Below are positions 1 through 49,148 of a stretch of 49,148 bases of DNA, one piece after another; the stretch's first letter is position 1, and every line of letters starts with the position of its first letter. The position numbers and the translations under genes are program-made. Below the pieces are notes generated by a model. It was not told the origin of the DNA. It did no database searches and saw nothing but the letters and a program-made list of their open reading frames with translations. The stretch lies in NCBI GenBank assembly GCA_965539945.1, contig CBETWD010000002.1:1-49148 (forward strand). The letters are read 5' to 3'. The DNA is from an uncultured bacterium (lineage in GTDB: Bacteria > Desulfobacterota > Dissulfuribacteria > Dissulfuribacterales > UBA3076).

Positions 1-92
1 CCCTTTTTTACCGGCAATTTATTCTGGGAAGTGATGATATTAAGTTTCATTTTTTTCTCCTGTGATTTCTCACGCTATTCCTTTTCTTCCTC

Positions 93-246
93 GTAACCGT
101 TCACGGGATTACAACGCCCGTTTCAACCCACCGAACTGTAAGCGTTTACATGGTGCTGCAGATGCGAGGCGGAGGGTACGCAGACGTACTCCCTGTACTT
201 CAAGTGCCCGACAACAAAGCAGATGCGGTGCCATGTGAACGCTTAC
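93..246 (-). mobile_element. MITE copy 1 (154 bp, reverse orientation), IS66-like termini, 8-bp TSD TCTTCCTC at 85-92 and 247-254
   Basis: The ends are GTAACCGTTCAC...GTGAACGCTTAC. The sequence matches 16483-16642 and 40585-40743 in reverse complement. The flanking 8-bp direct repeat is perfect. There is a ~6-nt internal deletion relative to the other copies and no ORF. Confidence 0.85.
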
Positions 247-2654: not shown

Positions 2655-2693
2655 GGAAATCGCAACCTTTCGTAATTTATTGTAAATTTAAGT

Positions 2694-3016
2694 GTAACCG
2701 TTCACGGGTTCAGGGTTACACATTAAAGGATGAACGTCGAACATCGAACATCGAACGTCCAACATCGAATGAAAAACAAATATCCAATACCGAGCATTCA
2801 ACGGCTATTTCTGTTTCCTCTAAAATATCATTTAGTAGTTCAGATTTTTTAATTAGCAGCCTTTCTTCCAGGTCATAAGTCTGTTTCTTCATCTTTTCCC
2901 ATTCAAAATTCGATGTTGGACGTTCGATGTTCATCTTTTCCTTGTCCCTTGACCCTTGACCCCTGCCCCTTGAACCCCTGAACCCTGAACCTTTGAACCC
3001 CGAACGGTCACGGTTT
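2694..3016. repeat. Composite palindromic repeat block (IR-like GTAACCGTTCACGGG end, TCGAACATCGAAC-type inverted repeats, 7-8-bp GGTTCA-type array)
   Basis: 2694-2720 reads GTAACCGTTCACGGGTTCAGGGTTAC. The inverted pair 2731-2770 (gaacgtcgaacatcgaacatcgaacgtccaacatcgaa) and 2906-2935 (ttcgatgttggacgttcgatgttcatc) flanks about 135 bp. 2941-2998 holds reverse-oriented GGTTCA-type units, and the block ends GAACGGTCACGG. Confidence 0.7.
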
Positions 3017-3021
3017 TTCTA

Positions 3022-4044: not shown

Positions 4045-4676
4045 GCCTGTTTTGTACGACTTTTTGCCAGACCCTGCAGGGCTTTTTTCACCAGATCTTC
4101 AAGGCTTGCACTATCACCTGCAGATGCAAAAGCCCTGGCAAGGGCGGCTTTTGTCTCAGATGAACCATAACCAAGATGCGTAAGTGCTGAGAGTGCGTCA
4201 TCCCACAGGTCTCCCTTACCCGGTTGCTCAATATGCGGGGATGATTCCATATCCCACTGTCTCTTCGTTAGTATGGCCTTGGCCTTTTCCTTTAGATCAA
4301 TACACAGTCTTGCCGCGGTCTTTTCGCCTATACCTTGGATGGCCCTAAGTCTTTTATTTTCTTCTCTGGCCAGTATCTGTAAAAGTTCTTCAGCAGAGAG
4401 CATTGACAGGATATTCAGTGCCAGTCTGGGGCCTACTCCTGAAACTTCCAGCAACAGCCTGAACATGTCCCTGGCTTCAATTGTTTCAAATCCATAGAGT
4501 GAAAGCGTGTCGTCCTTCCACACAAGGTGGGTAAAGACTGTCAGTTCATTACCGGATGGAGGCAATTTGGCCAGGGATGAAGAGGGCATCTGAATTTCAT
4601 AGCCGACTCCATTCACATCAATTATAACACCCCTGTCCCATTGACCCTGTTTCTCGCCCCTGATATAGCCGATCAT
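4041..4676 (-). CDS. ruvA: Holliday junction DNA-binding protein RuvA
   Basis: The ORF is open to 4736, but the canonical RuvA N-terminus MIGYIRGE starts at the ATG at 4676-4674. That ATG overlaps the ruvC TGA (4678-4676) by 1 nt. HhH motifs are present ([23 protein letters not shown]). Confidence 0.93.
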
Positions 4677-5188
4677 CAGCCTTTCCTTTTCGCGGAATCG
4701 GGTATTAGCCGGCTGCCCGAAGAGTGGGCATGGCATATAGCCACAGCAAGTGCATCCGCAGCATCCTGGGCGGGTTTTTTGGACAGGTTGAGGAGTACCC
4801 TGACCATGTGTTGCACCTGAGTCTTTTCCGCCCTGCCGTAGCCAACCACTGCCTGTTTAACCGTCATTGGCGAGTACTCGAATACAGGGAGACCTCCATG
4901 GACTGCCGCCAGAATTACCGCCCCCCTGGCATGACCAAGTAGCAAAGCAGCCCTGGCGTTAACTGAATGAAAGACTCCTTCCACTGCTGAGACTGTTGGA
5001 TTGTGCCGGCCTATTACTTCCTTTAGACCTGAATAGAGTCTTTCGAGCCGCTCTGCAAAGGTGAGTTCCGCGCGCGGACGGATGATACCTGCATTGACAA
5101 AATGGAGCCTGTTATCCTGCCATGACACAATTCCATAACCGGTAGCCCGCGATCCGGGGTCAATACCCAGGATGATCTCCCTTGGCAT
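4676..5188 (-). CDS. ruvC: Crossover junction endodeoxyribonuclease RuvC
   Basis: 170 aa. The N-terminus ILGIDPGSRATGYG is the RuvC catalytic Asp motif. The gene sits in the conserved yebC-ruvCAB order. Confidence 0.95.
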   Translation of the reverse strand: MPREIILGIDPGSRATGYGIVSWQDNRLHFVNAGIIRPRAELTFAERLERLYSGLKEVIGRHNPTVSAVEGVFHSVNARAALLLGHARGAVILAAVHGGLPVFEYSPMTVKQAVVGYGRAEKTQVQHMVRVLLNLSKKPAQDAADALAVAICHAHSSGSRLIPDSAKRKG

Positions 5189-5940: not shown

Positions 5941-5970
5941 AAGGCCTCCATTTTAAGATTTTTTGTAGAC

Positions 5971-6028
5971 GTTCAGAGGTTCAGAGGTTCAAAGGTTCAG
6001 GGTTATCTCTGAACCTCTGAACGGTTAC
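5971..6028. repeat. GTTCAGAG-type 8-bp array forming a hairpin, ending in an IR-like TGAACGGTTAC
   Basis: The sequence is gttcagag gttcagag gttcaaag gttcaggg ttatct ctgaacctctgaac ggttac. It is intergenic, between the yebC start and the GTPase gene end. Confidence 0.8.
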
Positions 6029-11431: not shown

Positions 11432-12025
11432 TTAACTTTCTGAGTCGTTGCCCATACCACGGCCTGTTCCGCTACCGCCACCCATTCCGCCGCCGCCTCC
11501 TCCGCCCATGCCGCGACCGCCGCCGCCCATGCCGCGACCTTTGCATCCTCCTCCCATTCCGCGACCTCCTCCGCCGATTCCGCGACCTCTGCCTCCTCCT
11601 CCCATACCACGGCCGCCGCCTCCCATGCCGCGGCCTCCAAACGATGGATCAAAGGTTTTGCCTGAATTTGCCGCAGCACTGGGACCTTTGTCCGGTGATG
11701 GAATCGTCCCCTTTCTATACTGTTCTATAGCTTCCCCGACAGTTCCGCTTACGTTTGATATCATCTTGATTCCACTTGCCTGGAGGACTTCAAAGGCTTT
11801 GGGTCCTATTTGTCCTGTCAAGACTGTCTGAGCACCTGATCCGGCTACAAGAGTGGCGGCATTAATACCTGCTCCCTGGGCGGCATCCTGGGCTGCCAAG
11901 TTATCGATAACGTTGACTATATTTCCTGATTCCGTGTCCACTATTATGAAATAGCCGGCCCTTCCAAACCTGGGGTCTACAGCAGAGTCCAGGTCTTTTC
12001 CAGTTGCACTAATCGCGATTTTCAT
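11432..12025 (-). CDS. NifX/NifB-like domain protein with a C-terminal Gly/Arg/Met-rich repeat tail
   Basis: The N-terminal ~115 aa (MKIAISATGKDLDSAVDPRFGRAGYFIIVD...) are NifX-like. The tail is FGGRGMGGGGRGMGGGGRGRGIGGGGRGMGGGCKGRGMGGGGRGMGGG.... Confidence 0.8.
   Translation of the reverse strand: MKIAISATGKDLDSAVDPRFGRAGYFIIVDTESGNIVNVIDNLAAQDAAQGAGINAATLVAGSGAQTVLTGQIGPKAFEVLQASGIKMISNVSGTVGEAIEQYRKGTIPSPDKGPSAAANSGKTFDPSFGGRGMGGGGRGMGGGGRGRGIGGGGRGMGGGCKGRGMGGGGRGMGGGGGGGMGGGSGTGRGMGNDSES
11450..11635 (-). repeat. Imperfect ~24-bp coding tandem repeat encoding (GGRGMGGG)n
   Basis: The unit CCnCCnCCCATnCCGCGnCC recurs on the plus strand. The overlapping Pro-rich and Ala/Glu-rich ORFs in other frames are shadows of this repeat. 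Confidence 0.8.
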
Positions 12026-13979: not shown

Positions 13980-14019
13980 CCAGTTCACAGGTTCACAGGT
14001 TCAGGGTTCAAAGGTTCAG
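13976..14019. repeat. IR-like GTAACCAGTTCACAGG followed by a GTTCA-type 7-8-bp array
   Basis: The sequence is gtaaccagttcacag gttcacag gttcagg gttcaaag gttcaga. The TAA stop of the upstream gene (13977-13979) lies inside GTAACC. Confidence 0.8.
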
Positions 14020-14291
14020 ATCCGTTGAATCGTGAGTTCTTCCTGCCCGCTCGCCAAGCTTGCGAGGCAGGCGGGAATGGAGAATGTATGAGAATAGAAC
14101 AATAGAGCAATGATAAATCATCAATCAACAATCAACAATCAACAATTTCGCTAGAGGCCGCAGAGAGGACGGAGATAAAGTAAAGACAAAAGCATTCACC
14201 ACAAGAACACAGAGACCACATAAATAAGAAACAAGAGTAGTTTTTTCTGTGTGCTCTGCGCGCTTGTGGTGAATATAGTCCTGCTCATAAA

Positions 14292-15727: not shown

Positions 15728-15762
15728 GGTTCAAGGTTCAGTGTTCAGGGTTCAAAGGTTGT
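15728..15762. repeat. GTTCA-type array enclosed by a short inverted repeat (AGTGAT...ATCACT)
   Basis: The sequence is ggttcaa ggttcagt gttcagg gttcaaag gtt. Confidence 0.7.
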
Positions 15763-16252
15763 AATCACTTGACATCCAACACATTATTAAATAATTCGTC
15801 TATTTGCTTCTTTCACCTATTGGGTGAAACATACTTATGCCCTCAATTGAGGCATTATCCTTTTGATATGAACCCGTTAGGGCTTTTCAACCTGGAACCG
15901 TGAACGCTGAACCGCTCAACCTGGGTTAAAGAGGCACAAGCGCCTTAATGAAGACAGCAGCCAAATTTTTACAAAAGCTCATAGATTAAAGTTTCTGCTG
16001 TTCATTTACAACAAGTATTCCTTTCGGTCCGCGCAGCCTTGGAATATCCGGACCATAAACGCCAACATCCATGAGTTTAACTTCATATATACCCCTTATT
16101 TATAAGTTGCAAGAGGTATTCAGGCAAGAGAACAGAGCCCAATGTTCAGATATCAAGAGAACTTGGGAACTTTAATCAACGCCCTTGACAAAAACCGAAT
16201 TAATGTAAATATTGTGAGCATATGATAATAACCAAAAAGGAGGTGAAAAAAT

Positions 16253-16471: not shown

Positions 16472-16482
16472 TCTCAACACAG

Positions 16483-16642
16483 GTAAGCGTTCACAGGGCA
16501 CCGCATCTGCTTTGTTGTCGGGCGCTTGAAGTACAGGGAGTACGCCTGTGTACCCGTGCGCCTCGCATCTGCAGCACCCTGTAAACGCTTACAGTTCGGT
16601 GGGTTGCGGTAAAACGGGCGTTGTAATCCCGTGAACGGTTAC
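16483..16642 (+). mobile_element. MITE copy 2 (160 bp, forward), 8-bp TSD CAACACAG at 16475-16482 and 16643-16650
   Basis: The ends are GTAAGCGTTCAC...GTGAACGGTTAC and the flanking direct repeat is perfect. The element lies 4 bp after the stop of the DUF5320-like gene. Confidence 0.9.
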
Positions 16643-16844
16643 CAACACAGAAATGGTATTACCCAGATTCGTGCGAAAAAATATATTGTAGAGGCCATTT
16701 CGATTTTGCACGCCGGGAAATATCCTGCCTCAAATTTTTGATTGATCATTTTATCAAAGACAGCTAAGAACAGAATTGTTTAATGCAGATTCGGATTTCG
16801 AATTTCTGACCAAGAAAACCAGCCAAAAACAAAGGAGGCAACAA

Positions 16845-17626: not shown

Positions 17627-19324
17627 CTAACTACCAAACCTTACTGCATCGGCACAGGTACTTGTAGAGCCGCCTTCAGAGACGATTACTATCTTTGCTG
17701 TGCCGCTAAAGGTGTAATTGCCCAGTACATTCCATTTCCCGCCATTGGCCTTTTGGTTTACCTCTACGGTATCAAGCAGGGTATCCCCGTCGTATATTCT
17801 TATAGGGACACCGGTGTTTCGACTCGGCCATTCTGTCCACCACAGCGAGACTTCACAGGATCCGTTGATAGGAGCACTAAAGGTGTATGTGGCGCCTGCT
17901 GTTCTGCTGTAAAGCGATTCAGCTCCATAGGGATTTTCACCTCCGGATTTATACCAGTTTCCAGTAGATGATGTACCGGCTTCATCGTTATCGACGATCA
18001 CCTCTGAGGGAGGAGTTGGAGGAGGAGTTGGAGTTGGAGGTGGGGGAGCAGTAGCAGTACCAAACCTTACTGCATCGGCACAGGTACTTGTAGAGCTGCT
18101 TTCAGAGACGATTACTATCTTTGCTGTGCTGCTAAAGGTGTAATTGCCCAGCGCATTCCATTCCCCGCCATTGGCCTTTTGGTTTACCTCTACGGTATCA
18201 AGCAGGGTATCCCCGTCGTATATTCTTATAGGGACACCGGTGTTTCGACTCGGCCATTCTGTCCACCACAGCGAGACTTCACAGGATCCGTTGATAGGAG
18301 CACTAAAGGTGTATGTGGCGCCTGCTGTTCTGCTGTAAAGCGATTCAGCTCCATAGGGATTTTCACCTCCGGATTTATACCAGTTTCCAGTAGATGATGT
18401 ACCGGCTTCATCGTTATCGACGATCACCTCTGAGGGAGGAGTTGGAGGAGGAGTTGGAGTTGGAGGTGGGGGAGCAGAGTCCACCTGAGCAAGGTATATT
18501 TCCGCTGAATTACCCTCACCAGCCATCCAAGCGATATAATTTCCGCTGATACAGGGGTATCTGTCATCCAGGTTATTATTGGTAACCTGTTCAAAGCCGT
18601 TTTGACCATTTTTGCGAATAATGATATCCCAGCCCGAACCATCATTCCACATTGAGACGGTTAGATCTCCATCAGTCTGCGGGCTGTCCTTCCAGATGAA
18701 ACCTTCAGAGGCTTCCTGTGTAGTTCCTTGAGAGATATCGTGAATAAACAAGACGCTGTTATCCGCCCCATCGGTCTGAATCCAGATAACAGACTCGCTG
18801 TTAATCCTGGGGGAACTGTCATCCTGTTGATTGTGAGTGAGTTGATCGTGTTGTCCTGTATTAATGTCATAAATCTTAATTTCTCCAGGTTCAACTGAGT
18901 CTGTAACCTGGTGTGATGCCCATACAACCCGGCCGTCTGCAATCTGTGGAGGTGAATCCACGTTACTATCGTTGGTGATTTTAGTGGTTTCCTTGGTCGC
19001 TATATTATATCGAAAAATCTCACCGCCTTGATTGCAGGCACCGAACCAGACCACATATTCACCGTCTGTCCGGGGTGAAATGCTGTCGTAGTTATTGTTC
19101 GTAATCCGGGTAGTCTCTTCATCTTCTATGTTGTATAAGAAGATCTGCCAGTGGCCGTTCTCATGCCCTTGCCAGACCACATAATCGCCATTGATATTTG
19201 GAAAACTATCATTATAGGAATTTGATGTAACCTGGGTTGTGGTGGTGTCAGCCTGGGCTGAGACATTCAAGCCCATGACAGTGATAAATGATATTATTAA
19301 TGAAATAAGTATTTTTCTTTTCAT
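17627..19324 (-). CDS. Secreted beta-propeller-repeat protein with two tandem near-identical C-terminal beta-sandwich (golvesin-C-like/carbohydrate-binding-like) modules
   Basis: The signal peptide is MKRKILISLIISFITVMGLNVSAQA. About six repeats of type D..SP.I.G.YVVW follow. Two 142-aa modules come next, each preceded by a PPPPTPTPPPTPPSE linker. The module family name is from memory and unverified. Confidence 0.7.
   Translation of the reverse strand: MKRKILISLIISFITVMGLNVSAQADTTTTQVTSNSYNDSFPNINGDYVVWQGHENGHWQIFLYNIEDEETTRITNNNYDSISPRTDGEYVVWFGACNQGGEIFRYNIATKETTKITNDSNVDSPPQIADGRVVWASHQVTDSVEPGEIKIYDINTGQHDQLTHNQQDDSSPRINSESVIWIQTDGADNSVLFIHDISQGTTQEASEGFIWKDSPQTDGDLTVSMWNDGSGWDIIIRKNGQNGFEQVTNNNLDDRYPCISGNYIAWMAGEGNSAEIYLAQVDSAPPPPTPTPPPTPPSEVIVDNDEAGTSSTGNWYKSGGENPYGAESLYSRTAGATYTFSAPINGSCEVSLWWTEWPSRNTGVPIRIYDGDTLLDTVEVNQKANGGEWNALGNYTFSSTAKIVIVSESSSTSTCADAVRFGTATAPPPPTPTPPPTPPSEVIVDNDEAGTSSTGNWYKSGGENPYGAESLYSRTAGATYTFSAPINGSCEVSLWWTEWPSRNTGVPIRIYDGDTLLDTVEVNQKANGGKWNVLGNYTFSGTAKIVIVSEGGSTSTCADAVRFGS
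17632..18477. repeat. Tandem duplication, 2 x 426 bp period (17632-18051 and 18058-18477 aligned)
   Basis: The two units differ at only 6 positions. All 6 differences fall in the first ~115 bp of the unit, and the remaining ~305 bp are identical. Confidence 0.95.
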
Positions 19325-29476: not shown

Positions 29477-31270
29477 ATGCTTAATAGATCCGTACAAACT
29501 TTAAAAGAATATACAGGACCGCTCTTATTGGCATTGGTCATCGGGGCACTTGCCGGCCTGGGAGTGGTTATGTTCAGGTGGCTGATACTTTTTGGCCAGG
29601 AGGTCCTGTGGCCTGCCGGCGCTAACTTTGTAGAACAGGTCCAACATGCCGGATGGTGGTGGAAGCTCCTTATTCCTGCTGGTATGGGCCTGTTGGTAGG
29701 ACCCATAATTACTTTTTGGGCACCCGAGGTCAGAGGACCCGGCGTGCCGGAAGTAATGGAGGCCCTTGCTCTTAAGGGCGGTCGAATAAGGCATCGTGTT
29801 ACCCTGATAAAGGCCTTTGTCACAGCAGGGCTTATCTCAGCAGGTGCCTCGGTCGGGCGTGAAGGTCCTGTGGTCCAGATTGGTTCCTCCATTGGCTCTT
29901 CCCTTACCCAGATGTTAAAGCTGGGGCGGGATTCAAGGAGGCTGGCTGTTGCCTGTGGGGCAGCAGCCGGCATAGCAGCTACCTTTCAGGCCCCTATGGC
30001 CGGGACTCTGTTTGCAGTGGAGGTGCTGCTTTTCGACCTTGAAATCGCCTCGCTCAGCAACATAGTAATAGCTGCTGTTACGGGTACGATGGTTTCCAGG
30101 GCGTTTTGGGAAGGGGCGCAGATATTTGTGATCCCCGATTTCTTTATGGCACATCCTGCTGAGCTGCTCCTATATTTTTTCCTGGGGCTTGTCGCGGGTA
30201 TTATAAGCCTGGTGCTTATGGGAGCGATTTTTTCCTTGCCCAGGTTTTGGAAAAGGATAGGGGTGCCGGGCTGGTTGAGTCCCGCCCTTGGCGGACTCCT
30301 GATAGGGATTGTTGCCCTCTATTGTCCTTGGGCTTTGGGTGTTGGGTATGAAAGCATAGATGCCGCCCTTGCAGGCAAGGTGTCCTTGGTATTTGCCTTA
30401 ACGCTGCTTGTTGCCAAAATCGTGGCTACAGGCTTTTCCATAGGATCGGGAATGAGTGGTGGAATATTTGCACCATCCCTGTTTATAGGAGCAGCACTGG
30501 GGTCTTTAGTAGGCCTCGTAGCCCAGTCACTGTGGCCGGAATCAGGTCTTGTTCCTGCCCACTATGCCCTTATAGGCATGGGGGCCATGGTGAGCGGAAC
30601 CACTCTGGCTCCCATAACAGCGGTGCTCACCATCTTTGAGCTTACATATAGTTACCAGGTGATATTGCCCCTGATGGTATCATGTATTGCAAGCCTTACT
30701 GTGGTCCGTCTGCTCCATGGCTACTCAATATATGAGACAAAGCTCCTTCTTAAGGGAGTGAATATTGTAAAAGGGCACGAGGTCAACGTCTTGAGGGGTA
30801 TGAGAGTAGGCGAACACATGAGCATGGACTTGCAGATCTTACGCACAGATACCCCCTTCAGTGAGATTGCGTCTGCCATGGAGCAAAGCCCTTTTCCTCA
30901 CTTTCTTGTACTTGATTCACAGGATCGCCTGTCAGGAGTATTGACCTTGAGGGATTGCAGAAAGTACTTTGCTCATCCGGAGTTGTGCACACCTGATACC
31001 ACCGCGAGTTTACTCATGTTCAAGGAAATAGTCTTAGTTGACGAAAAGACTGATATGGAAACGGCCTTTCACATTTTTGCCCGGCATAACATTTCTTTCC
31101 TTCCGGTTGTGAGTTCTGATGACCCGAAGACCGTGGTCGGGCAACTGAAAAAGACGGACCTGTTTGCCGCCTATGACCAGTATGTGCTCAAGGAACGCCT
31201 GCTTCCTCCCATGGGATGGGTGTGTTCTCTGCCTCTCACGGGTTCAAAGGTTCAAAAGTTCAAAGGTTAG
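29477..31270 (+). CDS. ClC-family chloride channel/transporter with C-terminal CBS pair
   Basis: It has the GREGP, GSGMSGGIFAPS (GxFxP) and GSSIGS selectivity motifs, with CBS-like repeats at the C-terminus. The last ~11 codons are encoded by a GTTCAAAG array. Confidence 0.92.
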   Translation: MLNRSVQTLKEYTGPLLLALVIGALAGLGVVMFRWLILFGQEVLWPAGANFVEQVQHAGWWWKLLIPAGMGLLVGPIITFWAPEVRGPGVPEVMEALALKGGRIRHRVTLIKAFVTAGLISAGASVGREGPVVQIGSSIGSSLTQMLKLGRDSRRLAVACGAAAGIAATFQAPMAGTLFAVEVLLFDLEIASLSNIVIAAVTGTMVSRAFWEGAQIFVIPDFFMAHPAELLLYFFLGLVAGIISLVLMGAIFSLPRFWKRIGVPGWLSPALGGLLIGIVALYCPWALGVGYESIDAALAGKVSLVFALTLLVAKIVATGFSIGSGMSGGIFAPSLFIGAALGSLVGLVAQSLWPESGLVPAHYALIGMGAMVSGTTLAPITAVLTIFELTYSYQVILPLMVSCIASLTVVRLLHGYSIYETKLLLKGVNIVKGHEVNVLRGMRVGEHMSMDLQILRTDTPFSEIASAMEQSPFPHFLVLDSQDRLSGVLTLRDCRKYFAHPELCTPDTTASLLMFKEIVLVDEKTDMETAFHIFARHNISFLPVVSSDDPKTVVGQLKKTDLFAAYDQYVLKERLLPPMGWVCSLPLTGSKVQKFKG

Positions 31271-31285
31271 GGTTCAAGGTTTACC
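31237..31285. repeat. GTTCAAAG-type 8-bp array overlapping the ClC 3' end
   Basis: The sequence is cacgg gttcaaag gttcaaaa gttcaaag gttaggg ttcaagg tttacc. Confidence 0.8.
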
Positions 31286-32971: not shown

Positions 32972-33404
32972 TGATCCTACCGCACCGTCATTGTTGCCCC
33001 GATGACTACCGCAGATAATGATTATTCGTAACCGTTCAACGTTCGATGTTGGACGTTCGATGTTCATTACTAAATTCAGGTCCCCCAACATGTGAATGCG
33101 CCCGTCGGTGTCTATGGAGTATCGGGTGTGGGTTTTTATGAAACGCATGATATTGTTACGTCATTGGCGCATAAGAGTCAACTTAATCCGCCTGAGAAAG
33201 ACGTCAGTATGATGGACAGTGTTTCTGGATGAACTTGAGTTACACCGTTTTGATTTCACAGGAATTGACATATTTTTTGCCCTTAACTATAACAATTTAT
33301 GAGGATCAAAATATCATTGATTATCCTGATGTCGAGACGGTGTGGTGAAAGGGATAGGGGAAAAGCAGGAAATGACAATCATCATTATCCACAGGCTGAT
33401 GAAA

Positions 33405-40427: not shown

Positions 40428-40584
40428 AGTAACAAGTGTACCTCCTGGTGAGATATTACAAGCTTATTTATCTGAGGCTCTGGCTTTTTTATCGGCCTAA
40501 TGTGTTAAAAGACTTAAATGAAAGGTAACCCTTGATCGTCTGTTCCTTGGAAGCTATACTGCCTTTATCGAAACCGGAAATTAG

Positions 40585-40743
40585 GTAAGCGTTCACAGGG
40601 CACCGCATCTGCTTTGTTGTCGGGCACTTGAAGTACAGGAAGTACGTCTGCGTACCCTCCGCCTCGCATCTGCAGCACCCTGTAAACGCTTACAGTTCGG
40701 TGGGTTGCGGTAAAATTGGCGTTGTAACCCCGTGAACGGTTAC
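40585..40743 (+). mobile_element. MITE copy 3 (159 bp, forward), 8-bp TSD GAAATTAG at 40577-40584 and 40744-40751
   Basis: The ends are GTAAGCGTTCAC...GTGAACGGTTAC and the flanking direct repeat is perfect. The element lies 85 bp upstream of the ftsE start. Confidence 0.9.
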
Positions 40744-40827
40744 GAAATTAGGTAACGCATCTACATCTTTAGTATTGTTTCCAATTTCCAATTTCAAGTT
40801 TCACTGCCAAAATACAAGATCAACAAT

Positions 40828-48159: not shown

Positions 48160-48438
48160 CCAAAACAAAATTAGCTCAAAGCTGAAAGCTCAAAGAGCTA
48201 TCGCAATCAACCCCTTTCAGCTTCAGGCTTTCATGGATTAACTGGCATCCTTCACTGTAATAGGCGCTAAAGAGCTTGACTAGGTTGCGATATGGAAATA
48301 ACATACCGTAAGGTAAGGCAATTGTAAAAGGACTGGTTTGCGCTTGACTGGATGGATTTGTTGTTTGGCGCTTTTCTGAAAAAAGGAAATTCCTATACTA
48401 TAAATTTAGTTTAAACAAAGGAGAAGGGGGTAAGCTAA

Positions 48439-48876
48439 GTGAAACTAAAGACTGTTTTTGAAAATAATGGGTTTATGCCTGCGAAATATACATGCGATGC
48501 CGGTGACAATAATCCAGAATTCATAATAGAAGATGTGCCGGAAAAGACAAAGAGTTTTGCTATGACAATGGAAGACCGCGACTCTCCAATAAGAACAATG
48601 GTTCACTGGATTATCTTTAATGTCCCAGCGGATATAAGAGAAATAAAAGAAAATACTATTCCTCAAGGAAGTATACAGGGAACAAATGATTTTGGGAAGC
48701 AAAGTTATAAAGGGCCCTGTCCTGATTCGGCCATTCATAGATATGAATTCCGCTTATATGCTCTGGATAGAGTTCTCGAAGTTGATGAAAAAACGAAAAA
48801 AGCCGAGTTAGAGAATTTAATGAAGGGTCGTACTCTAGCAGAAGAAGTATTAACAGGATTATATTCAAGGGACTAA
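48439..48876 (+). CDS. YbhB/YbcL (PEBP/Raf kinase inhibitor-like) family protein
   Basis: It has the DRDSP..TMVHW and GPCPDSAIHRYEFRLYALD motifs. The GTG start is preceded by GGAGAAGGGGG. Confidence 0.85.
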   Translation: MKLKTVFENNGFMPAKYTCDAGDNNPEFIIEDVPEKTKSFAMTMEDRDSPIRTMVHWIIFNVPADIREIKENTIPQGSIQGTNDFGKQSYKGPCPDSAIHRYEFRLYALDRVLEVDEKTKKAELENLMKGRTLAEEVLTGLYSRD

Positions 48877-49027
48877 AAAAGCGCAGTGTACTTGTGGTGG
48901 AGTACATGAGCATTTTCGACTTATCTGCGTGCGACGCACAGGCAGGCGAGCAACGCAGCCATCGGGTCATTGATCCAGGAACGGCAGTTCCGGCAAAAGA
49001 TGGGTTTTGCGAACGGCTCTAAAGAAA

Positions 49028-49059
49028 AAGGCGGCAGTTAAAGCCGCCTTTTCTTTTTT
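49028..49059 (+). terminator. Rho-independent terminator
   Basis: The stem aaggcggc/gccgcctt has a 7-nt loop and is followed by TTCTTTTTT. Confidence 0.75.
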
Positions 49060-49148
49060 GTAACCGTTCACGGGATTACAACGCCCGTTTTACCGCAACC
49101 CACCGAACTGTAAGCGTTTACAGGGTGCTGCAGGTGCGAGGCGTACGG
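49060..49148 (-). mobile_element. MITE copy 4 (reverse orientation, truncated by the window end)
   Basis: It starts GTAACCGTTCACGGGATTACAACGCCCGTTTTACCGCAACCC. The first 51 nt are identical to the reverse complement of copy 2. It is inserted directly after the terminator T-tract. Confidence 0.8.

What the first reader, a model, noticed from the sequence alone, without database searches (positions are those of the whole stretch)
16475..16650. Previously unannotated ~160-bp MITE family with IS66-like ends and perfect 8-bp target-site duplications (4 copies in the window)
The same sequence occurs at 93-246 (reverse), 16483-16642 (forward), 40585-40743 (forward) and from 49060 to the window end (reverse). 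The termini are imperfect inverted repeats, GTAAGCGTTCAC and GTAACCGTTCAC, matching at 11 of 12 positions. Each complete copy is flanked by a different perfect 8-bp direct repeat: TCTTCCTC, CAACACAG and GAAATTAG. The element has no coding capacity. Different TSDs at each site argue for real transposition events rather than segmental duplication. From memory of the IS literature, IS66-family elements have IRs that begin 5'-GTAA and generate 8-bp duplications. An IS66-type transposase located elsewhere is therefore the likely mobiliser. Copies differ mainly in the central ~40 bp, and copy 1 has a ~6-nt deletion.
Basis: partly seen in the sequence, partly recalled or inferred. Interest (0 to 1): 0.72.

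Follow-up and report, generated by a model that had tools for sequence, protein, structure and literature searches.

The report
IS66-type MITE family in seep sulfate-reducers
The repeat is a real, recently mobile 160-bp miniature transposon with no gene of its own and the end sequence and 8-bp footprint typical of IS66 insertion sequences; it is common in uncultured marine sulfate-reducing bacteria, which makes it a sound but fairly ordinary discovery, and the enzyme that moves it was not found.

Summary
The window has three complete copies (93-246, 16483-16642, 40585-40743) and one cut by the window end (49060-49148). Each complete copy has a different perfect 8-bp duplication.

Transposition is shown directly. 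Close relatives of this genome (SEEP-SRB2 MAG E20 and others) have empty sites with a single 8-mer at copies 1 and 3. The window is itself empty where a relative carries a copy.

In public genomes and metagenomes I found 67 elements with perfect 8-bp duplications, 64 of them distinct. They come from at least 35 MAG assemblies, mostly labelled Desulfobacterales or Deltaproteobacteria. The target is AT-rich and roughly palindromic.

The ends (GTAAGCG / GTAACCG) and the 8-bp duplication match a panel of real IS66 elements examined here.

No IS66 transposase, and no long element with these ends, occurs in 1.09 Mb around more than 200 copies. The mobiliser is therefore inferred, not shown.

Additional findings:
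- The element carries a third, internal copy of the end.
- Its first 110 nt form a hairpin with about 10 fixed G·U pairs on the bottom strand only.
- At least two other short element types share the same terminus.

Verdict: a new member of a known kind, of moderate interest.

The parts
93..246 (-). Copy 1 of the element (154 bp). It is inserted in the last codons of the Lon-like protease gene.
   Evidence: The site is empty in E20SeepSRB2.
85..92 (.). Target-site duplication of copy 1 (TCTTCCTC on the + strand); its partner is at 247-254.
   Evidence: The relative L115 has a single GAGGAAGA at this place.
243..245 (-). Stop codon TAA of the Lon-like gene, supplied by the GTAA end of the element. 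The protein is 803 aa here, against 805 aa (...EEEEKK) in the relative without the insertion.
16483..16642 (+). Copy 2 (160 bp), flanked by CAACACAG at 16475-16482 and 16643-16650.
   Evidence: The same site is occupied in MAG AUK005 (L101, 90% identical flank).
16483..16510 (+). Left end (IRL), GTAAGCGTTCACAGGGCACCGCATCTGC. Its first 20 nt match the left end of real IS66 elements at 14 of 20 positions.
   Evidence: The 51-bp derivative L009 keeps only these 28 nt plus 23 nt of the right end and still has a TSD.
16565..16592 (-). Internal third copy of the end (GTAAGCGTTTACAGGGTGCTGCAGATGC on the - strand). It pairs with IRL to form the 110-nt hairpin.
16628..16642 (-). Right end (IRR), GTAACCGTTCACGGG on the - strand.
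40585..40743 (+). Copy 3 (159 bp), flanked by GAAATTAG at 40577-40584 and 40744-40751. It lies between the divergent pilT and ftsE-like genes.
   Evidence: Relatives L183/L185/L186 have an empty site with a single 8-mer.
49060..49148 (-). Copy 4: the right end and internal repeat only, cut by the window end. It abuts a terminator-like hairpin at 49028-49055.
48301..48308 (.). Empty target site: a single ACATACCG where relative L018 carries a 159-bp copy flanked by ACATACCG on both sides.
5965..6028 (.). A 64-bp palindromic mini-element with related termini (GTAGACGTTCAGAGG... / GTAACCGTTCAGAGG...) and a 7/8 flanking repeat (GATTTTTT / AATTTTTT). It is absent from E20SeepSRB2.
4670..4677 (.). 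Empty target site (GATGATCG on the - strand, at the ruvC stop / ruvA start). E20SeepSRB2 carries here a different 148-bp element with the same type of ends and an 8-bp duplication.

Best explanation
The element is a non-autonomous cut-or-copy DNA transposon (a MITE) of about 160 bp. A transposase supplied in trans binds the two outer ends (GTAAGCGTTCAC... and ...GTGAACGGTTAC). It inserts the element at an 8-bp staggered cut in AT-rich, roughly palindromic targets (about vAAATTTb), and repair of the stagger gives the 8-bp duplication. The transposase is most likely of the IS66 family (a TnpC-type DDE enzyme, either classical IS66 or the single-gene ISBst12 group).

Shown here: mobility, the 8-bp footprint, the IS66-type ends, the minimal cis requirement (no more than 28 nt on the left plus 23 nt on the right), and recent activity in the SEEP-SRB2 lineage.

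Inferred: the identity of the enzyme. Also inferred is any role for the internal third end-copy and the 110-nt hairpin, which may be a second transposase binding site or a structure formed by the bottom-strand transcript.
For: Ends and duplications are exact in the window.

Empty sites with a single 8-mer exist for copy 1 and copy 3, and the window is empty where L018 is filled.

Sixty-seven distinct elements have perfect 8-bp duplications. Of the 65 that start GTAAGC, 64 have different 8-mers. These 8-mers are 66% A+T against a 50% background and have a palindromic profile.

Deletion derivatives of 51-151 bp keep both outer ends and still have duplications.

The left-end 20-mer was found in more than 113 stretches from 35 MAG assemblies, and 62 further variants were found in metagenomes.

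In the panel of real IS66 elements, ends start GTAAGCG (29/38) or GTAACCG (7/38), 43 of 63 have perfect 8-bp duplications, and the left end of L190/L266 is identical to the MITE's left end at 14 of 20 positions.

Literature: the IS66 inverted repeat starts GTAAGCG and gives 8-bp direct repeats (PMC11946415). ISPsk01 has the IR GTAAGCGTCCGG... (PMC12888890). The ISBst12-group element ISDge4 has ends GTAACTGCTCAGCA and an 8-bp direct repeat (PMC12898284).

Two other short element types with the same terminus and an 8-bp duplication point to one shared enzyme.
Against: No IS66 TnpA/TnpB/TnpC homologue was found by tblastn or by profile HMMs in the window, 113 genome loci, 62 metagenome loci and 7 relatives' contigs, 1.09 Mb in all.

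No element of 0.26-6 kb with GTAA...TTAC ends and an 8-bp duplication occurs there.

None of the reference IS66 elements carries GTAA[GC]CGTTCAC.

The outer inverted repeat is only about 16 nt (14/16), shorter than the 20-30 nt usual for IS66.

MAG binning tends to lose multi-copy IS contigs, and only flanks of MITE copies were searched, so absence here is weak evidence.
Confidence: 0.7

Rival explanations
1. It is a MITE, but it is mobilised by a transposase that is not IS66-family. This could be another DDE family that makes 8-bp duplications (ISL3, IS256, IS6, IS1595) or an undescribed one. The GTAAGCG start would then be convergence.
For: No IS66 gene occurs in 1.09 Mb around more than 200 copies. 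Several unrelated short elements share only the 11-12-nt terminus. An exact match to a known IS66 end is lacking.
Against: Both end variants (GTAAGCG and GTAACCG) are exactly the two used by real IS66 elements. The left end matches IS66 left ends in two separate blocks, positions 1-8 and 16-20. From my own knowledge of the ISfinder family table, no other family combines GTAA ends with an 8-bp duplication. The only other transposases seen nearby are IS3-like and IS4-like, with different ends.
Confidence: 0.2
2. Besides being mobile, the element is kept because its bottom strand is transcribed into a functional 110-nt hairpin RNA. That RNA could act as an mRNA stabiliser, a processing site, or an antisense regulator of the parent transposase.
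For: The bottom-strand RNA folds with a z-score of -5.0, against -2.0 for the top strand. It is the more stable strand in 48 of 53 copies, by 9.8 kcal/mol on average. About 10 stem positions are fixed as G·U on the bottom strand against 1 on the top strand (462 versus 90 cells). The hairpin architecture is conserved in subfamilies that are only 75-80% identical.
Against: The copies share ancestry, so the asymmetry may have been inherited once. RNAalifold finds almost no covariation. There is no Rfam match and no promoter- or terminator-like site. Orientation relative to neighbouring genes is not significantly biased, and leans the other way (28:15). Deletion derivatives that lack the hairpin still transposed.
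Confidence: 0.12
3. It is not a transposon. It would instead be a repeat spread by segmental duplication or recombination, a REP/BIME-like host palindrome, or an assembly artefact.
For: Some copies lack a duplication, and one sits at a synteny break. Many contigs end inside the repeat.
Against: The flanks of the copies are unrelated, and each copy has its own exact 8-bp duplication. Orthologous empty sites carry a single 8-mer. The same element occurs in independent assemblies from many projects.
Confidence: 0.01

Closest known systems
IS66 family insertion sequences (IS66, ISEc8, ISCro1; single-gene ISBst12 group such as ISDge4)
   Same: The ends start 5'-GTAAGCG or GTAACCG and the target duplication is 8 bp. 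The left 20 nt match IS66 left ends at 14 of 20 positions. Mixed G/C at position 5 between the two ends also occurs in ISCro1 (PMC11946415, PMC12888890, PMC12898284).
   Different: The element is 160 bp with no tnpA/tnpB/tnpC. The outer inverted repeat is only about 16 nt. It carries an extra internal end-copy. No cognate full-length element was found.
Bacterial MITEs derived from other IS families, such as the ISCca4 (IS982)-derived MITE of Cardinium (PMC9769881), MITEPsy1/2 of Pseudomonas syringae (PMC3189936), Correia elements of Neisseria and RUP of Streptococcus pneumoniae (the last two from my own knowledge)
   Same: It is a short, non-coding, multi-copy element with terminal inverted repeats. 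It is mostly intergenic, folds into a long hairpin, shows insertion polymorphism between close relatives, and gives rise to deletion derivatives.
   Different: The duplication is 8 bp rather than TA or 3-9 bp. The termini are IS66-type. It is spread over many species of uncultured Desulfobacterales and SEEP-SRB2 rather than one genus. It has a three-end architecture.
REP/BIME and ERIC-type host palindromes
   Same: It is an abundant intergenic palindromic repeat that can fold in transcripts.
   Different: Those repeats have no fixed target duplication and are not delimited by transposon ends. Here there are exact 8-bp duplications and empty sites.

Membership tests
MITE (non-autonomous DDE transposon) | Short (below about 300 bp) and without coding capacity | tested here: met
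   Length is 154-160 bp in the window and 51-185 bp elsewhere. The longest internal ORFs are 28 aa.
MITE (non-autonomous DDE transposon) | Terminal inverted repeats | tested here: met
   GTAAGCGTTCACAGGG / GTAACCGTTCACGGGA, matching at 14 of 16 positions.
MITE (non-autonomous DDE transposon) | Target-site duplication of fixed length that differs between copies | tested here: met
   Three of three complete copies in the window have one. Sixty-seven elements overall have perfect 8-bp duplications, with 64 distinct 8-mers among 65.
MITE (non-autonomous DDE transposon) | Presence/absence polymorphism with a single target copy at the empty site | tested here: met
   Copy 1 against E20SeepSRB2. Copy 3 against L183/L185/L186. 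Window empty against L018 filled.
MITE (non-autonomous DDE transposon) | An autonomous partner with the same ends in the same or a related genome | tested here: inconclusive
   None was found in 1.09 Mb of flanks. Whole genomes could not be scanned.
IS66 family (as a derivative) | Ends beginning 5'-GTAAGCG | tested here: met
   The left end is GTAAGCG and the right end is GTAACCG. In real IS66 elements read here, ends start GTAAGCG in 29/38 and GTAACCG in 7/38. See also PMC11946415.
IS66 family (as a derivative) | 8-bp target duplication | tested here: met
   In the reference panel, 43 of 63 elements have a perfect 8-bp duplication.
IS66 family (as a derivative) | Inverted repeats of 20-30 bp | tested here: inconclusive
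   Outer complementarity ends after about 16 nt. However, the left-end 20-mer matches IS66 left ends at 14/20, including positions 16-20. The left end and the internal copy pair over 28 nt only if G·U pairs are allowed.
IS66 family (as a derivative) | A TnpC DDE transposase (with or without TnpA/TnpB) that recognises these ends | tested here: inconclusive
   No homologue was found near any copy by tblastn or profile HMM.
Rfam RNA families | Match to a curated covariance model | tested here: not met
   No match at gathering score or at E up to 10.
REP/BIME-type palindromes | Short palindromic units without a target duplication | tested here: not met
   The element has exact 8-bp duplications and transposon-type ends.

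The most novel reading that the evidence does not exclude
The 11-12-nt terminus GTAA[GC]CGTTCA may define a whole guild of non-autonomous elements in seep sulfate-reducers. Members seen so far are the 160-bp family, a 148-bp family, 64-bp palindromes, octamer arrays that begin with the terminus, and cassettes with small ORFs such as a GIY-YIG gene. On this reading they are moved by a transposase that is not a classical IS66 and has not been described. The conserved bottom-strand hairpin, with about 10 fixed G·U pairs, would be a functional RNA of that system.
Probability: 0.1. Interest if true: 0.6.

Novelty: new member of a known kind. Interest (0 to 1): 0.35.

Why it matters
The hosts are SEEP-SRB2 and related Desulfobacterales, the uncultured partner bacteria of methane-oxidising archaea. 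Their genomes exist only as MAGs.

- **Assembly and binning.** At roughly one copy per 5-12 kb (4 in 49 kb here, 4 in 22 kb of E20SeepSRB2), this repeat is a main cause of contig breaks. It also explains mis-binned contigs: two 'archaeal' bins carry it, and for one of them (L018) the flank matches this bacterial window.
- **Effects on genes and genome order.** It truncates and re-terminates a gene, and it marks a synteny breakpoint.
- **Strain markers.** It gives cheap presence/absence markers for these consortia.
- **Transposon biology.** It would add a clear, abundant MITE to the IS66 family, whose mechanism is poorly known. It also defines a minimal substrate of about 28 + 23 nt for a transposition assay.

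Tried and rejected
**Search for the autonomous partner**
- A genome-contig scan with the left-end 20-mer gave more than 113 hits, all MITEs or remnants.
- A metagenome scan used a pattern built to skip canonical MITE copies (20-mer, 50 N, then two non-C bases). It gave 62 hits, all variants or truncated remnants next to ordinary host genes.
- Viral-contig scans with the 26-nt core and the 16-nt end gave nothing.
- BLAST of the element against plasmids gave nothing.
- tblastn and profile HMMs of TnpA/B/C found nothing. The one TnpA hit was the HTH of an IS3 element.
- A weak TnpC hit in L001 was not a transposase.
- Long ORFs following orphan left ends were host genes: a histidine kinase, GspF, Mpl, Pgi, GrpE, BioF and others.

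**Other attempts**
- Look-up of two window proteins by exact sequence failed because the window genome is not in that index.
- I tested whether the internal end-copy serves as an alternative right end. No 110-bp element with a duplication was found.
- I tested for orientation bias relative to neighbouring genes. It was 28:15, not significant.
- I ran no further search on TnpC. Only the best 120 of many thousands of IS66 transposases would be listed, with no way to target these hosts.

Full report

Yes. Reading the four places and aligning them gives three complete copies and one partial copy:
- 93-246, reverse, 154 bp
- 16483-16642, 160 bp
- 40585-40743, 159 bp
- 49060-49148, reverse, cut by the window end

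The copies are 92-98% identical. The 12-mer GTAAGCGTTCAC, allowing one mismatch, occurs 12 times in the window against 0.09 expected.

Each complete copy is flanked by its own perfect 8-bp direct repeat: TCTTCCTC, CAACACAG and GAAATTAG. The longest ORFs inside the element are 28 aa. Rfam has no match at gathering score or at E up to 10.

- The outer inverted repeat extends to about 16 nt (14/16).
- The 12 matches include a third, internal copy of the end in every element (GTAAGCGTTTAC, inverted, element positions 99-110). Positions 1-110 therefore form a long hairpin, followed by a 50-nt tail that ends in the real right end.
- Copy 1 sits in the last codons of a Lon-like protease gene, and the element's GTAA provides the stop codon.

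**2. Whose genome is this?**

The Lon-like protein is 97% identical to that of MAG E20SeepSRB2 (PQXE01). The window is 94-96% identical in DNA to a 7-kb syntenic stretch of that MAG. More distant homologues are from Dissulfurimicrobium and Dissulfurirhabdus. The window therefore comes from a SEEP-SRB2-type sulfate reducer.

**3. Is it mobile?**

This is shown directly by comparing orthologous sites.
- **Copy 1.** At its site E20SeepSRB2 reads ...AAAGAA-GAGGAAGA-AAAGAAATAG..., with one 8-mer and no element, and its Lon protein ends ...EEEEKK (805 aa). The window has GAGGAAGA-element-GAGGAAGA and a protein of 803 aa.
- **Copy 3.** Three relatives (93% protein identity) have a single CTAATTTC between ftsE and pilT.
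- **The reverse case.** Contig L018 is 94% identical to window 48375-48880. It carries a 159-bp copy flanked by ACATACCG twice, where the window (48301-48308) has one ACATACCG and no element.
- **Copy 2.** It is shared with MAG AUK005 at the same site, so it is older.
- **A synteny break.** One E20 copy without a duplication lies exactly where synteny with the window ends. This is what recombination between copies would give.

**4. How wide is the family?**

It returned 113 stretches from 35 assemblies. Nearly all are labelled Desulfobacterales, Desulfosarcinaceae, Desulfococcaceae, SEEP-SRB2 or 'Deltaproteobacteria'. The exceptions are one Saprospiraceae bin and two archaeal bins; for one of the archaeal contigs (L018) the flank matches this bacterial window, so it is mis-binned.

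A metagenome scan designed to skip canonical copies still gave 62 variants.

Over all held sequence, 67 distinct elements have perfect 8-bp duplications. Of the 65 that start GTAAGC, 64 have different 8-mers. Lengths run from 51 to 185 bp, with modes at 158-160 and 150.

The duplicated 8-mers are 66% A+T against a 50% background. Their profile is roughly palindromic (not T, A, A, A, T, T, T, not A), as expected for a symmetric transposase complex.

Deletion derivatives that keep only the outer ends still have duplications. The smallest has 28 nt of the left end plus 23 nt of the right end. No 110-bp element that uses the internal end-copy was seen. The outer ends are therefore the functional ones.

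**5. Which transposase?**

I tested this against real elements rather than memory.
- In an Acuticoccus plasmid and in pO157 (ISEc8), tnpA-tnpB-tnpC units are bounded by GTAAGCGTAC... ends and perfect 8-bp duplications. ISCro1 has one GTAACCG end and one GTAAGCG end, the same G/C difference as in this MITE.
- In 63 loci that encode TnpC relatives, 43 have perfect 8-bp duplications. The 19 distinct end pairs start GTAAGCG (29/38) or GTAACCG (7/38).
- Two of these elements have left ends identical to the MITE's first 20 nt at 14 positions, in two blocks: 1-8 and 16-20.
- Papers state the same signature (PMC11946415; PMC12888890; for the single-gene ISBst12 group, PMC12898284).

The two sequence features that define IS66 ends are therefore met.

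The third feature, a cognate transposase, was not found.
- There is no TnpB or TnpC by tblastn or by profile HMMs in the window, the 113 genome loci, the 62 metagenome loci and the relatives' contigs, 1.09 Mb in all.
- There is no element of 0.26-6 kb with GTAA...TTAC ends and an 8-bp duplication.

This is weak negative evidence. Only the neighbourhoods of MITE copies were available, and MAG binning tends to lose multi-copy IS contigs. I put about 0.7 on an IS66-family mobiliser and about 0.2 on some other enzyme.

**6. Other elements with the same terminus**
- E20SeepSRB2 has a 148-bp element of unrelated interior. Its ends are GTAATCATTCAC... and ...GTGAACGGTTAC, and its duplication is GATGATCG. 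It lies at the ruvC/ruvA junction, where the window (4670-4677) is empty.
- The window has a 64-bp palindrome at 5965-6028. It has ends GTAGACGTTCAGAGG / GTAACCGTTCAGAGG and a 7/8 flanking repeat, and it is absent from E20.
- Many intergenic arrays of the octamer GGTTCANR begin with GTAACCGTTCA.

One enzyme that recognises about 12 nt would explain all of these. That is an inference.

**7. The hairpin**

Folded as RNA, the bottom strand of copy 2 has a z-score of -5.0, against -2.0 for the top strand. Over 53 full-length copies with duplications, the bottom strand is the more stable in 48, by 9.8 kcal/mol on average.

The cause is about 10 stem positions that are G·U on the bottom strand and therefore C·A on the top strand. 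Only one position goes the other way (462 against 90 cells).

Such one-sided wobble pairing is what selection on a single-stranded form gives. There are several reasons for caution:
- the copies share ancestry;
- RNAalifold finds almost no covariation;
- no promoter or terminator motif is present;
- orientation relative to neighbouring genes is not significantly biased (28:15);
- derivatives that lack the hairpin transposed anyway.

I record the asymmetry as an unexplained property and give an RNA role low probability (about 0.12).

**8. Verdict**

The interpretation as a MITE with IS66-type ends is supported by tests done here. The mobiliser remains inferred.

It is a new member of a known kind. 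It is useful for anyone assembling or comparing these genomes, and it is a clean candidate substrate for IS66 biochemistry. It is not surprising to a specialist. Interest: 0.35.

Noticed in passing
window 5965-6028: A 64-bp palindromic mini-element made of GTTCAGAG repeats. Its ends are GTAGACGTTCA / GTAACCGTTCA and its flanks are GATTTTTT / AATTTTTT. It is missing from the otherwise collinear E20SeepSRB2 contig.
   Followed up: partly
window 2968-3000, 5971-6002, 13983-14020, 15728-15772, 31240-31280; also L010, L016, L026, L063, L075, L139: Intergenic tandem arrays of the octamer GGTTCANR. Many begin with the MITE right-end motif GTAACCGTTCA. In L010 such an array replaces the tail of a MITE copy. 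Their origin is unknown; they could be expanded transposon ends or binding-site arrays.
   Followed up: partly
window 2655-3021: A 367-bp spacer between ruvB and lon that E20SeepSRB2 lacks (there the two genes are 2 bp apart). It is bounded by GTAACCGTTCAC... and ...GAACGGTCAC and has no clean duplication. It contains a perfect 25-nt inverted repeat of (GAACATC)n (2746-2770 / 2908-2932) and a 72-aa ORF starting MNIERPTSN with no Pfam family. Related sequence occurs at 33028-33067 and in L016.
   Followed up: partly
L115 7652-7799 (E20SeepSRB2); window 4670-4677: A second MITE family: 148 bp with an unrelated interior, ends GTAATCATTCAC / GTAACCGTTCAC and duplication GATGATCG. It is inserted at the ruvC stop / ruvA start. 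The window has the empty site. More copies are in L020, L101 and L108.
   Followed up: yes
window about 7616; L115 4402-4560: Synteny between the window and E20SeepSRB2 ends exactly at a MITE copy that has no duplication. This suggests rearrangement by recombination between copies.
   Followed up: partly
L143 4475-4701; L082 1-155; L137 1-119: The terminus GTAA[GC]CGTTCAC followed by the repeat GTCATTTCGACCGAAGGGAGAAATC. In L143 this is followed by a small GIY-YIG nuclease gene (Pfam E = 7e-13). All three lie at contig ends, as if part of a longer repeated element.
   Followed up: partly
L159 4-93: A 90-bp perfectly palindromic derivative in which both ends are the left end (35-nt perfect arms).
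   Followed up: no
L116, L128, L133, L141, L151, L157, L172, L173: A subfamily of about 185 bp that carries an extra inserted hairpin (CCCCGTGAAATGCGAAGCCTATTTCACCGGGG) in the centre of the element.
   Followed up: no
window 17632-17931 and 18058-18357: A 300-nt direct repeat (98% identical, 426 nt apart) inside the 565-aa gene with two Golvesin_C domains. It is probably an internal domain duplication.
   Followed up: no
window 11474-11638: A 21/27-nt periodic GC-rich repeat inside overlapping ORFs. It encodes a Gly/Met/Arg-rich low-complexity stretch on the - strand.
   Followed up: no
L018 (CAZOEM010000653.1, 'Halobacteria archaeon') and L096 ('archaeon'): Contigs carrying the bacterial MITE sit in archaeal bins. 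L018 is 94% identical to this bacterial window, so it is mis-binned. This is plausible for ANME/SRB consortia.
   Followed up: partly
L063 275-1332; L033 3935-5146: Unrelated insertion sequences lie near MITE copies: an IS3-type element (OrfA/OrfB) and an IS4-like element. Neither has GTAA ends.
   Followed up: partly
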